This document shows, one piece after another, positions 54,555-59,756 of a DNA stretch of 64,000 nt. Made by a program: the position numbers and the translations under genes. The notes under the pieces were generated by a model, which saw nothing but the letters and a program-made list of their open reading frames with translations, did no database searches and was not told the origin of the DNA. Source of the DNA: the human T2T-CHM13v2.0 reference genome, Homo sapiens. The stretch's first letter is position 1. The number at the start of each line of letters is the position of its first letter. The stretch lies in the NCBI RefSeq assembly GCF_009914755.1, contig NC_060934.1; one strand, written 5' to 3'.

Positions 54555-55147
<593 letters not shown>

Positions 55148-55637
55148 TTATTCCTAACACCCATGGTTTTTATATATTTTCTATTACCTTGATCCTTTTC
55201 TATGTTGTCTTCATGTGAAACTCGTGAAAGCTAAGTATAAAACTAAATTTTGTTATATGGCTCTAAAGATGCCCAGCACCTGAAATCCAATGATCTTTAA
55301 TAAATCAATCCAAGCAAATACTCAAAGGAGCAAGGGAAATGTTCAGACCAAAGGTTTTTGGCCAGATTCTGGCCATGGCTTTGAAACAGCTCTTAACCAG
55401 ATTCAATGGCTAGTTGATAATGAGATGCTTGTTTTGGCTTTATAGCTTGTCGTCTAAGGTTTATTATGCTATGGATTCTCACTCGTTTGAAAAGAACAGG
55501 TGGGACTCAACTCAGTTCTAATGGTGACTCCTAAAGCAAACCTCTCCTACAGCTAAGGTCTGTTCCTAGGGAAGTAGCAGTGCTGCCTGTTAGGCAGGGA
55601 AGAGATTCAAGTGAAGGTCTTAAAATCTAGGGCTCTA

Positions 55638-55739
55638 TGCCAGGCATGGTGGGTATGCCTGTAATCCCTACACTTTGGGAGGCTGTGGTACACTCCAGTC
55701 TGGGTAACAGAAGACCTGTCAAAAAAAAAAAAAAAAAAA
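55638..55739 (+). mobile_element. Internally deleted Alu remnant
   Basis: Alu 5' end joined directly to an Alu 3' end and A tail. Confidence 0.75.
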
Positions 55740-56467
55740 GCGGGGGTGCTCTGGAAACGACAAACCTAAGAAAAAATGTTATCTCCACCTCTTACTGATT
55801 GGATGCATTTGAGCATATTGCTCGATCTCTGAGTTTCACTTGGCTCACAGTAAGCCTTCAATAAATGCTGATAACAATGGTAATTACCATTCTGTAATCT
55901 CACACACATGTTCTAAGCGTCTTTTAGCTGCACAGCCTCTATGCACCAAAGCAGCAACAGGATGCTTCCAAGAACCATTTCAATTGCATCCCTTCAAACA
56001 GCAGTGATGAGTCAACAGGTACTTTATACTTCTGCAGTTCATACAGCTTTGTAGACAGATCATCTTATTTGTACTTTTTGAACTTGACTCATCACTCTTC
56101 CTGGACACGCAGGGGTGAGGGATAGAGATGGGGAAGGTAGATGCTGCTACCAAGATGATGGTCTTGCACGTAGCTATGAAACCTGCTTAAACCAATTCAG
56201 GGGGAATTTTAAGGCATAGCGTTAATTCTTTATCAATGCCAAGGAGCAAAGTCCAAAGACAAATTAAGACAAGGTCCAAACAGAATAGTTGAAGCCGGCC
56301 TGGACCAAAGGGCAAGGATGATCTACTCATGAAGCAGCAGCTACAAAAGCTGGGGTCCTGCCATAAAACAGACACCACACAAGTAATTTTTACTGGGACA
56401 ATTTAACATCAAAGTTATTAACTACTAATGAAGGATTACCTTCTAAGAGAGGTAAAGATAACTCTTA

Positions 56468-56785
<318 letters not shown>

Positions 56786-57052
56786 ACAGAAATAGCAGCT
56801 CTAGAGTACAACCACTCCACGAAGGGGCTGAAAGAGTGCTCGAGGAAGGAACAAACTTGGAAAAAGCTCCACTCCATGGCTGAGACTTACTTTGTTGGAG
56901 ACAACGGATCGATGGCCCACTGGATGGAGAAGTTTGCTGAGATGCCACAGGCCAGGACGGGCTGGCAGGAAACTGCCCATGGTGGGTGCTATTGGGGCTT
57001 ACCACCTTGGGTTGCAGTATCCCTAGCCCCACTGGCAGGAAAGCTGCCCGCT

Positions 57053-57127
57053 TTGTTCCCTAAATAGGGACTTGTATGAATGGCCCCACGAAGGTTCAGC
57101 TGTCTCTTACTTCTAATCAGTGAAATT
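57053..57127 (+). pseudogene. NUMT: fragment of mitochondrial 16S rRNA (MT-RNR2), humanin region
   Basis: TTGTTCCCTAAATAGGGACTTGTATGAATGGCCCCACGAAGGTTCAGCTGTCTCTTACTTCTAATCAGTGAAATT matches human mt 16S as I recall it, with about 6 substitutions in 75 nt. Confidence 0.92.
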
Positions 57128-57187
57128 CCTAAACAAGGAAGCCACCTGCTGGCAGCCATGGCTATGCCGAAAGAGCAAGAAAAATAA
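57080..57187 (+). CDS. Putative humanin-like smORF MAPRRFSCLLLLISEIPKQGSHLLAAMAMPKEQEK (35 aa). The ORF is open, but there is no evidence of expression.
   Basis: Manual translation from ATG 57080 to TAA 57185-57187. First 16 aa are 14/16 identical to humanin. Confidence 0.25.
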   Translation: MAPRRFSCLLLLISEIPKQGSHLLAAMAMPKEQEK

Positions 57188-57524
57188 GGTACCAGAAAGG
57201 GAAAAACAAGCCCTGTCCTCTTTTAATATCTCTCCCACTCTCTCACCTCTATCAAGGACCAGTTGCACTGGCCGAGGAGACATATTCCAGGGTCCATCTC
57301 CAGTAGCACAAAGTAGGACAAAGAAGAGTGGATTTGGAGATGAGGCACTGATAACTGGCATAGATTCAAAGTAGGTAAAATGAAGGTGCAGGTTTGGAGA
57401 AATGGCCGGCGTCCACCAAGACGATTTTCAACGTCATGCTCAGAACCTCCGACAAGGGAATATTAGGACTAACCAGTGGCATATTATGGGCATAATGGCT
57501 CTCACAATTAATCTGCTTCTGTGA

Positions 57525-57902
<378 letters not shown>

Positions 57903-58528
57903 TAATAACCTGGGTTCCTATTTGGCTCAGCAGGTCCGTCTAAGACCTAATGAGATGTCTGCAGCATGCTCTGTTACAGCTCTGTGCCTATTACTAGAAA
58001 CTTCCCAGAGCGGAAGTTGGAACTGAACAAAGGGAGACTTAAAGTAAGCATTGGCCACAGGAGCATATAAACCCAATTTGAATATTTTAAAATTTAATTA
58101 ACCATGATTATGGATTGCATGACTGAATTCACCAACTGATTCAGTCAAAATAAACTAGTTGCTATTGCAATTTTACTTCCTAATGATTGTAATGAATTAG
58201 TTGAGAGACGCTGGGAAATATTTTCCAGTATAATATTTAAGAATTTTATCAACCAGGGTCTCAAAGGACTTAATTTAGGTATAATAACTTTTTTCTCTTT
58301 CTGCTGCTGAAATGTGGTGAATCTATGTGTGACTAATTGAAGTTGCACACAGTGATCTATCCACATGACCAGAAGAGGGCTCTGAAGTAGGCTAAGTGCT
58401 AGAGGTGTCTCATTTAATTCCAGGAAAGGGGCTATCCTTCCTCTCTATCCTGAAAGCTTATTTTCCTGAACTAAACTAGTGAATCTACTATGGACCCAGC
58501 TCTGTGCACAGTGAGGAGAAAGGTTTTT

Positions 58529-58839
58529 GTTTTTTGTTTTTTGTTTTTTCTTCTTTTTTTGAGACGGAGTCTCACTCTATCGCCAGTCTAGAGTGCAGTG
58601 GCACGATCCCAGCTCACTACAACTTCCGCCTCCCGGGTTCAAGTTGTTCTCCTGCCTCAGGCACCCGAGTAGCTTGGACTGCAGGCTCCCACCACCACAC
58701 CCAGCTAATTTTCGTATTTTTAGTAGAGACAGGGTTTCACCATGTTGGCCAGGATAGTCTCAATCTCTTGACCTCGTGATCCACCCGCCTCAGCCTCCCA
58801 AAGTGCTGGGATTATAGGTGCGAGTCACCGCAGCCAGCA
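58529..58839 (-). mobile_element. AluSc-like
   Basis: Reverse-complement Alu. TSD GAGAAAGGTTTTT at 58516-58528 and 58840-58852. Confidence 0.95.
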
Positions 58840-59098
58840 GAGAAAGGTTTTTATAAAATAAATAGACATTCTGGCCTGGACATATGATTATGAGAACACT
58901 ACAAAGAGCTAAGGAAGGGGCCTCAATTATGTGGCACAAACATTAGCTACAAGAGATACTCAGAGACAGGGACCATCCGTGGGTCTATGTGCACTTGAAC
59001 ACCTGGGCAGGGCTCATGGAGAAGGTAGCACTGACTTTGCCTAATATTTTGTGGGGTTTGTCTGTGTTTGTGTTAAGGGGAATGGTGCATTGTGTACT

Positions 59099-59756
59099 TG
59101 TGGCAGGCCAGGTCTCACTAACCCAGGCCTCCATAACAGCTGTTTCAGCACTGACTGAGTGGTTAAGTTAAATATTAAAAGCAGATAGAGCCAGTGCCCT
59201 TATACAAAAGCTAGAATGTAATAAAAACCCACCAAGAGTTTTGCCTAGGCCATTCCAGGGCCTTGAAGTATGAAATGATAATAAGGGAATTCTTAACAGG
59301 AATCGTTTAGAATTAAACAAGTTTTATTGGGGGTCTAAAGAAACTCCTCAGACCGCCACAAACAAGTTTATTGGGGGTCTGAAGGAACTCCCCAGACCTC
59401 CGTGATTTAGCAGGAGACAAGATAAGGGTAATCACCCCAGCACCTGGACCCATTTAGATTAAGTAAATGTACTGAGGCTCCAGAGGAAGGTCTTCAGAAC
59501 TCGGATATTAGTTATAGATTAGAAGAAGTTAATCACTTATGTCTTTAGATGAATGCAAACTTAAACATAGACATATAGCTTAGAAGGTATATAAGCTCTG
59601 GAAAACTTCGTAATTTTGAGTTGGTCTGGTGACATTTTCCGGGCCTTCTCCTTGTACACAGGTATGGAAATAAACTCCCTTCTTTCCCAGATCATCTGCA
59701 TCTTGTTATTGGGCCATGAGAATAAGCAGCCCCACCCTCAATTTGGTCCAGGAACA
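59099..59756 (+). mobile_element. ERV1 solo LTR (LTR15-like, tentative)
   Basis: TG...CA ends, TATATAA and AATAAA, and an internal ~45-bp tandem repeat near 59315-59405. Perfect TSD TACT at 59095-59098 and 59757-59760. Confidence 0.85.

What the first reader, a model, noticed from the sequence alone, without database searches (positions are those of the whole stretch)
57053..57187. Tiny mitochondrial insertion that captures the humanin start and creates an open chimeric humanin-like ORF
Seen: 75 nt of mt-16S-like sequence in otherwise non-repetitive DNA, without a TSD. It includes an ATG at 57080 that stays open to TAA at 57187 and gives MAPRRFSCLLLLISEI-PKQGSHLLAAMAMPKEQEK. The ORF is absent from the supplied ORF track, which lists nothing under 60 aa. 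Known: humanin ([24 protein letters not shown]) is encoded in MT-RNR2 and has nuclear copies (the MTRNR2L family). Here P3, S7, C8, the Leu run and S14 are kept, G5R and T13I are changed, and the DLPVKRRA tail (including P19) is replaced by 19 nuclear-derived residues. Inference: this is a candidate de novo microprotein locus ~36 kb downstream of GPR158, and I do not recognise it as a named MTRNR2L gene. Caveats: weak Kozak context (T at -3), an overlapping out-of-frame ATG at 57076, and no visible promoter, so a silent NUMT is the default explanation.
Basis: partly seen in the sequence, partly recalled or inferred. Interest (0 to 1): 0.8.

Follow-up and report, generated by a model that had tools for sequence, protein, structure and literature searches.

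The report
Short old mitochondrial fragment, chance ORF
A 75-base scrap of mitochondrial 16S rRNA DNA sits in an old repeat downstream of GPR158; it holds the first 16 codons of humanin, and its reading frame runs on into the neighbouring DNA about as far as chance would allow, so it is most likely an ordinary silent fragment.

Summary
Window 57053-57127 (+) is a 75-nt piece of mitochondrial 16S-rRNA-type sequence. It matches 38 other nuclear copies in the same genome at 79-95% identity, and the match is always confined to these 75 nt. Its first 16 residues pass Pfam's Humanin cut-off (30.6 vs 27 bits) and align to PDB humanin.

The interpretation as a candidate microprotein gene has no support. 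The fragment was cut before humanin's own stop, so the frame reads on until the first stop in the flank. A 19-codon run has a chance probability of 0.35-0.39. Open humanin-type frames are common among the other copies (14 of 29). Arg5 and Ile13 are not special to this locus. The essential Pro19-Val20 are missing. RefSeq annotates no gene here, and I found no CpG island, TATA box or poly(A) signal.

The flanks are not unique DNA but an old interspersed repeat. The source lineage is old: a recent-type origin is rejected (AU p 0.005-0.02). Primate orthologues, expression data and NUMT catalogue tables could not be consulted.

Verdict: an ordinary short, old, silent NUMT.

The parts
57053..57127 (+). 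75-nt nuclear fragment of mitochondrial 16S rRNA sequence (NUMT), in rRNA sense. It is inferred to correspond to about m.2606-2680 of the human reference mtDNA.
   Evidence: There are 38 other nuclear matches, confined to these bases except for one extra base at an end in 3 of them. blastn against 29 fetched copies gave the same limits. The mtDNA numbering is inferred from PMC5571476: C2639T = P3S, so the ATG is at m.2633.
57080..57187 (+). 35-codon ORF plus TAA. Codons 1-16 come from the NUMT (the humanin N-terminus) and codons 17-35 from flanking nuclear DNA.
   Evidence: Pfam PF15040 Humanin scores 30.6 bits (cut-off 27), with residues 1-16 on profile positions 1-16 of 24. PDB 1y32_A humanin matches at E 0.0027 over residues 1-17.
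57128..57187 (+). Read-through part of the ORF (19 codons and the stop) in old repeat-derived flank.
   Evidence: The probability of at least 19 stop-free codons is 0.35 over all window positions, 0.39 locally and 0.35 in shuffles of 57128-57427.
57076..57123 (+). Overlapping out-of-frame upstream ATG frame (15 codons and a stop), itself inherited from the mitochondrial sequence.
   Evidence: The same ATGAATGG context is present in the other copies.
56825..57052 (.). Upstream flank: part of an old interspersed repeat (family not named, as no repeat library is held).
   Evidence: 56825-56869 matches L036 at 83% and 56843-56995 matches L032 at 69%. The flank is colinear with L036, L032, L064 and L065. 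Only one weak hit was found genome-wide.
57128..57365 (.). Downstream flank: continuation of the same old repeat. Its 57267-57364 module has many copies.
   Evidence: 11 other genomic matches at 76-89%. 40 further matches were found with the L036 copy as query. L036 and L032 match both flanks in the same order and orientation.

Best explanation
This is a short, old, fixed NUMT. A 75-nt piece of mitochondrial 16S rRNA sequence was captured into a chromosomal break inside an ancient interspersed repeat, about 36 kb downstream of GPR158. End-joining repair is the probable mechanism; this step is inferred from the lack of a TSD and from what is known of NUMT insertion.

The piece happens to begin 27 nt before the humanin ATG and to end after codon 16. 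That removed humanin's own stop codon, so the frame simply continues into the flank until the first in-frame stop, 19 codons later. The resulting 35-codon ORF is a by-product of where the fragment was cut. It is most likely neither transcribed from its own promoter nor translated.

Shown:
- the identity and limits of the fragment;
- the ORF;
- the chance expectation for its length;
- the repeat nature of the flanks;
- the old source lineage.

Inferred:
- the insertion mechanism;
- fixation;
- silence.
For: - Limits and origin. 38 other nuclear copies match 57053-57127 only (57052-57128 at the widest), at 79-95% identity. This was confirmed against 29 fetched copies. Those copies continue to match each other on both sides, and the window does not. 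Flank scores are within the shuffle range: 81 to 477 of 500 shuffles reach the observed score over 14 comparisons.
- Humanin identity. Pfam Humanin is passed at 30.6 bits against a 27-bit cut-off, but only over positions 1-16 of 24. PDB humanin aligns to residues 1-17.
- Chance ORF. P(at least 19 open codons) is 0.35 to 0.39. Among the 29 other copies, 26 keep the ATG, 17 keep the ATG and at least 16 codons, and 14 keep the ATG and at least 24 codons.
- No private 'design'. The 75 nt differ from the majority base of the 29 copies at only 3 sites, and each of those is shared with other copies: 57086 C with 8 of 29, 57092 A with 2 of 29, 57113 C with 4 of 29.
- No signs of a gene. RefSeq annotates nothing at this place (hub table). 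CpG o/e is 0.31 over 56053-58127. There is no TATAAA or TATATA in 56501-57100 and no AATAAA or ATTAAA in 57001-58000 on the + strand. Position -3 is T, and there is an overlapping upstream ATG.
- Typical NUMT anatomy. There is no TSD. The length lies within the reported range for T2T-CHM13 NUMTs: 958 NUMTs, minimum 28 bp, median 194 bp (PMC10671835, passages and Table 1). Two of the 29 other copies are also short fragments of this region (L022 about 210 nt, L029 about 95-110 nt).
- Age. The best placement is on the backbone between the large old cluster and the younger clade. Origin from the youngest lineage is rejected (AU p 0.005 and 0.02).
Against: - Nothing I could run measures transcription, ribosome occupancy or peptides, so silence is inferred, not shown.
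- The ORF is intact, with a G at +4.
- The CGA codon 4, which is TGA in 9 of 29 other copies, is still open here.
- Ser7, Cys8, Leu9-11 and Ser14, the residues reported as conserved among nuclear isoforms (PMC8965846 passage), are all kept.
- At least 10 MTRNR2L loci are reported to be transcribed (PMC13591426 passage), so nuclear humanin copies are not always silent.
- The placement in the tree rests on 75 nt and is weak: support is 54 and 84, and several placements are not rejected.
- A direct comparison with mtDNA was not possible.
Confidence: 0.9

Rival explanations
1. The chimeric ORF is a real, translated, humanin-like microprotein: a de novo gene born from a NUMT start and a repeat-derived tail, expressed from some unannotated transcript.
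For: - The 35-codon ORF is intact, with ATG and +4 G.
- Its N-terminal 16 residues pass the Pfam Humanin cut-off.
- Ser7, Cys8, Leu9-11 and Ser14 are kept (conserved set per PMC8965846).
- Some nuclear humanin copies are reported to be transcribed.
Against: - The ORF length is what chance gives, and open frames are common among silent copies.
- Pro19-Val20, reported as essential for secretion, and the basic tail are missing.
- Position -3 is T, and an overlapping upstream ATG precedes the start.
- No gene is annotated, and no CpG island, TATA box or poly(A) signal was found (hub table).
- Even for the 13 named MTRNR2L genes, a 2026 review states that no direct evidence of translation exists (PMC13591426 passage).
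- The peptide strings occur in 0 papers of the searched library.
Confidence: 0.04
2. The 75 nt did not come straight from the organelle. It is a secondary copy of an existing nuclear copy, or a patch templated by 16S rRNA or an MTRNR2L transcript during break repair. It is still silent.
For: - The best nuclear match, L002, is 95% identical.
- Placement as sister of L002 is as likely as the backbone placement (AU p 0.62 vs 0.75).
- 57092 A is shared only with L002 and L006.
- Duplication of pre-integrated NUMTs is described as a major route of NUMT expansion (PMC13179385 passage).
Against: - The window shares none of L002's other departures from the majority in these 75 nt (57087 T and 57089 T). 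It carries 57086 C where L002 has A.
- No flanking sequence is shared with any other copy, so it is not a segmental duplicate.
- 75 nt cannot separate DNA-borne from RNA-templated origin.
Confidence: 0.05
3. The similarity is a chance or low-complexity match and no mitochondrial fragment is present.
For: None beyond the shortness of the match.
Against: - 38 matches reach E values down to 1.1e-24, with sharp common limits.
- The Pfam Humanin gathering score is passed.
Confidence: 0.01

Closest known systems
Short fixed NUMTs of the human reference genome
   Same: It is nuclear and flanked by non-mitochondrial DNA, with no TSD. It has high identity to other 16S-derived copies. Its length lies within the reported range for T2T-CHM13 (minimum 28, median 194 bp; PMC10671835).
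   Different: Nothing of substance differs. It lies in the short tail of the length distribution.
MTRNR2L1-13, the nuclear humanin-like genes (Bodzioch et al. 2009, seen only as cited in PMC8965846 and PMC13591426)
   Same: It has the same mitochondrial source region and the same N-terminal peptide type. Arg5 also occurs in the copy L006 and Ile13 in many copies.
   Different: - The named genes lie in long 16S copies (homology of about 1.3 kb or more) and keep a 24-28-codon frame with the native tail and stop.
- This locus has only 75 nt, lacks codons 17-24, and is not annotated.
- The assignment of my loci to gene names is from recall of their peptides and places, not from a tool.
Mitochondrial humanin (24 aa; PDB 1Y32)
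   Same: 14 of the first 16 residues are identical.
   Different: The tail DLPVKRRA is replaced by 19 unrelated residues. Pro19-Val20, reported as needed for secretion, are absent.

Membership tests
NUMT (nuclear sequence of mitochondrial origin) | Significant sequence similarity to mitochondrial DNA | tested here: met
   The evidence is indirect. The stretch matches 38 nuclear 16S-type copies at E down to 1.1e-24, and its translation passes Pfam Humanin and aligns to PDB humanin. A direct alignment to mtDNA was not possible, as the held genome has no mitochondrial contig.
NUMT (nuclear sequence of mitochondrial origin) | Lies in a chromosome and is bounded by non-mitochondrial DNA | tested here: met
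   The place is C10:25663053-25663127. The flanks show no similarity to the adjoining 16S sequence and belong to an old interspersed repeat.
NUMT (nuclear sequence of mitochondrial origin) | End-joining type junctions (no target-site duplication) | tested here: met
   No direct repeat brackets 57053-57127. This is typical of NUMTs but not strictly defining.
NUMT (nuclear sequence of mitochondrial origin) | Empty orthologous site in an outgroup, which would date the insertion | not testable with these tools
   No primate genomes are held. Four other copies of the flanking repeat lack the 75 nt, but they align too poorly at the junction to serve as an exact empty site.
Humanin / MTRNR2L peptide family (Pfam PF15040) | Score above Pfam's gathering cut-off | tested here: met
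   30.6 bits against 27, E 2.2e-7, covering only profile positions 1-16 of 24.
Humanin / MTRNR2L peptide family (Pfam PF15040) | Full-length 24-28-residue frame with the native C-terminal part (DLP/DLS..KRR type) and native stop | tested here: not met
   The homology ends after codon 16, and residues 17-35 come from the flank.
Humanin / MTRNR2L peptide family (Pfam PF15040) | Residues reported as essential for secretion: Leu9-Leu11 and Pro19-Val20 (Yamagishi 2003, as cited in PMC8965846) | tested here: not met
   Leu9-11 are present. Positions 19-20 are Gln-Gly.
Humanin / MTRNR2L peptide family (Pfam PF15040) | Annotated or transcribed gene | tested here: not met
   The hub's RefSeq table for the window has no gene between 20794 and 65611. 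Transcription itself is not testable with these tools.
De novo microprotein gene | ORF longer than chance allows | tested here: not met
   P(at least 19 further open codons) is 0.35-0.39. 17 of 29 other copies keep the ATG and 16 codons.
De novo microprotein gene | Transcript, ribosome footprints, peptide evidence, purifying selection | not testable with these tools
   No expression, Ribo-seq, proteomic or primate data are held. The peptide strings were found in 0 papers.

The most novel reading that the evidence does not exclude
The 35-codon frame is translated in some tissue from an unannotated transcript. That would give a humanin-headed peptide with a new repeat-derived tail, and it would be an example of a NUMT donating a ready-made start codon and hydrophobic N-terminus to a de novo microprotein.
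Probability: 0.03. Interest if true: 0.55.

Novelty: new member of a known kind. Interest (0 to 1): 0.1.

Why it matters
It matters little as biology: it is one more short NUMT. Two practical points follow.

- The fragment shares 75 nt with MT-RNR2 and all MTRNR2L loci. Short reads, primers or probes aimed at the humanin start can therefore cross-map here, while any read that spans 57127/57128 is unique to this locus.
- It is a clear worked case that an open 'humanin-like' frame in a NUMT is not evidence of a gene. Fourteen of 29 other copies have such a frame, and truncation before the stop codon lengthens the frame automatically.

If the peptide were nevertheless found, it would show that NUMTs can seed new microproteins.

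Tried and rejected
- Direct comparison with mtDNA: the held genome has 24 contigs and no mitochondrial one, so nuclear copies, Pfam and PDB served as stand-ins.
- Rfam scan of 56500-57700 at E up to 10: it found only Alu-type matches (SRP RNA and Alu-derived miRNA families) and one chance snoRNA match. No rRNA family matched.
- A longer, more diverged NUMT: a 9-nt identity about 35 nt upstream (57011-57019) looked suggestive, but flank alignments score within the shuffles, so this was rejected.
- Flanks from another part of mtDNA: rejected. The upstream flank has a single weak genomic match. The downstream matches belong to a repeat family with 40 or more matches whose members are colinear with both flanks.
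- Exact empty site from other copies of the flanking repeat: the copies are about 70% alike and vary in length around the junction. Only the absence of the 75 nt could be shown, not the exact target.
- Fine dating: 75 nt allow only the exclusion of the youngest lineage. An absolute date was not attempted beyond 'old'.
One list of files was returned but no file was opened. Whether this fragment is in published NUMT tables therefore stays open.
- The bacterial promoter/terminator scan, structure prediction, complex prediction and the large protein searches were not used. They do not bear on a 35-codon human ORF.

Full report
**What is there**

Under the standard code, the ATG at 57080 opens a 35-codon frame that ends with TAA at 57185-57187. 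It gives MAPRRFSCLLLLISEIPKQGSHLLAAMAMPKEQEK. An out-of-frame ATG at 57076 opens a 15-codon frame that stops at 57121-57123. Position -3 of the main ATG is T and +4 is G.

**Is it mitochondrial-type sequence, and how long is it?**

The genome held for this window has 24 contigs and no mitochondrial one, so I could not align to mtDNA itself. Three independent stand-ins agree.

- Searching 57030-57150 against the whole genome gave 38 other places at 79-95% identity, with E down to 1.1e-24. Every match stays within query 23-99, that is window 57052-57128.
- A blastn of 56053-58127 against the 29 fetched copies found only 57053-57127 (57052-57128 at the widest) plus two Alus, at 56476-56790 and 57565-57885.
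- The translated N-terminus passes Pfam's Humanin family (PF15040, 30.6 bits against a cut-off of 27, residues 1-16 on profile positions 1-16 of 24). It also aligns to PDB humanin 1Y32 over residues 1-17 (E 0.0027).

In the multiple alignment, the other copies remain homologous to one another for hundreds of bases on both sides, and the window does not. A 9-nt identity about 35 nt upstream (57011-57019) made me test for a longer, decayed insert. Local alignment scores of both 100-nt flanks against seven copies lie inside the shuffle distributions: 81 to 477 of 500 shuffles reach the observed score. The insert is therefore 75 nt, give or take a base.

A passage in PMC5571476 states that C2639T gives P3S and that T2638C is silent. 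From this the humanin ATG is at m.2633, so the fragment corresponds to about m.2606-2680. This numbering is an inference.

**The surroundings**

No direct repeat brackets the insert, as expected for end-joining capture of mtDNA. The flanks, however, are not unique DNA.

- The stretch 57267-57364 has 11 other matches at 76-89%.
- Two loci, L036 and L032, match both the upstream flank (56825-56869 and 56843-56995) and the downstream flank, in the same order and orientation.
- With the L036 copy as query, 40 further matches appear, and a chromosome-12 pair (L064 and L065) again carries both modules.
- In the five-way alignment, homology runs from about 56825 to 57052 and resumes near 57140. None of the four other copies holds the 75 nt.

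The fragment therefore lies inside an old interspersed repeat. I cannot name the repeat, because no repeat library is held. The copies are too diverged around the junction to give an exact empty site.

**Age and source**

Over the 75 nt, the window differs from the majority base of the 29 copies at three sites only, and each variant is shared with other copies.

| Site | Base | Effect | Shared with |
|---|---|---|---|
| 57086 | C | Pro3 | 8 of 29 |
| 57092 | A | Arg5 | 2 of 29 (L002, L006) |
| 57113 | C | silent | 4 of 29 |
| 57117 | T | Ile13 | 17 of 29 |

'G5R' and 'T13I' are therefore states that circulate among the older copies, not changes made at this locus.

A maximum-likelihood tree of 27 longer copies (1573 columns) shows two groups. 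One is a large cluster of old copies with short inner branches. The other is a ladder leading to a young clade of L012, L009 and L010. With that tree as constraint, the window attaches to the backbone between the old cluster and the younger clade, with support of 54 and 84.

An AU test of ten placements gave the following:

- Rejected: a position beside the L009/L010/L012 clade (p 0.005), beside L009 (p 0.02) and beside L022 (p 0.029).
- Not rejected: the backbone (p 0.75), beside L002 (p 0.62), and five others.

So the fragment does not descend from a recent, modern-type mtDNA. Beyond 'old', 75 nt cannot date it. I expect it to be fixed and present in other apes, but this was not tested.

**Is the ORF more than chance?**

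The cut after codon 16 removed humanin's own stop codon, so the frame must run on to the first stop in the flank.

- The chance that 19 or more codons follow without a stop is 0.35 over all positions of the window, 0.39 in 55001-59500, and 0.35 in 20,000 shuffles of 57128-57427.
- Reading from the homologous ATG in the 29 other copies:

| State of the copy | Copies of 29 |
|---|---|
| ATG kept | 26 |
| ATG and at least 16 open codons | 17 |
| ATG and at least 24 open codons | 14 |
| Stop at codon 4 (CGA to TGA) | 9 |

An intact head joined to a 19-codon tail is therefore roughly a one-in-five outcome for a fragment cut like this one.

**Signs of a gene**

- The hub's RefSeq table has nothing between the end of GPR158 (20794) and GPN3P1 (65611).
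- CpG observed/expected is 0.31 over 56053-58127.
- There is no TATAAA or TATATA in the 600 nt upstream, and no AATAAA or ATTAAA in the 1 kb from 57001 on the + strand. These are weak tests.
- Nothing here measures RNA or protein.

**Comparison with what is known**

- Passages in PMC8965846 list Ser7, Cys8, Leu9 and Ser14 as conserved among the nuclear isoforms, and all are kept here. They list Leu9-Leu11 and Pro19-Val20 as essential for secretion, and the second pair is lost here (residues 19-20 are Gln-Gly).
- A passage in PMC13591426 reports Bodzioch et al. 2009 as finding 28 nuclear copies. Thirteen are full length, and at least ten are transcribed at levels 100 to 250,000-fold below MT-RNR2. 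The same review states that no direct evidence shows translation of any MTRNR2L gene.
- The peptides I read from 13 of the fetched loci look to me, from recall, like the named MTRNR2L1-13. No tool checked this naming.
- PMC10671835 (passages and Table 1) counts 958 NUMTs in T2T-CHM13, with a minimum of 28 bp and a median of 194 bp, using blastn at E below 1e-4. A 75-nt match of this quality should pass such a screen.
- The strings MAPRRFSC, MAPRRFSCLLLLISEI and QGSHLLAAMAMPK occur in none of the papers searched.

**Verdict**

The object is a 75-nt, old NUMT fragment inside an ancient repeat. The chimeric ORF is the expected by-product of cutting the humanin frame before its stop. It belongs to the NUMT class. 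It fails the tests for a full humanin/MTRNR2L member: the tail is absent, Pro19-Val20 are absent, it is not set in a long 16S copy, and it is not annotated.

I put 0.9 on a silent NUMT and 0.04 on a translated peptide. Another 0.05 goes to a secondary (nuclear-copy or RNA-templated) origin, which would not change the functional verdict. Interest is low.

Noticed in passing
window 56876-57067 (+): A 63-codon chance ORF lies in the same frame as the humanin-like ORF. It is closed by a TAG at 57065-57067 that lies inside the NUMT, and a second in-frame stop (TGA, 57077-57079) directly precedes the ATG.
   Followed up: partly
window 56476-56790 and 57565-57885: Two Alu elements in opposite orientation bracket the 775-nt interval that holds the NUMT. 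The first matches Rfam SRP RNA and Alu-derived miRNA families below their cut-offs.
   Followed up: partly
L021 (G000:C8:104212869-104212944): This is a very diverged 16S copy (end branch 0.41). It still has an ATG and a 27-codon humanin-type frame. By my recall it is not one of the 13 named MTRNR2L genes, so it is another example of an open frame in an old copy.
   Followed up: no
L020 (G000:C17:19549054) and L030 (G000:C10:26895282): In both of these 16S copies an Alu is inserted inside the humanin frame, after codon 12 in L020 and near codon 9 in L030. The insertion truncates or alters the frame.
   Followed up: no
L064 and L065 (G000:C12:30213388-30213504 minus strand; C12:30127370-30127763 plus strand): These are two nearly identical copies of the old flanking repeat with their surroundings, about 86 kb apart in inverted orientation on chromosome 12. 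They look like an inverted segmental duplication.
   Followed up: no
L005 (G000:C7:144022897) and L015 (G000:C9:33677149): These two 16S copies are sisters with a shared stem of 0.027 and short end branches of 0.025 and 0.028. This fits either duplication of one inserted copy or two insertions from one mitochondrial lineage.
   Followed up: no
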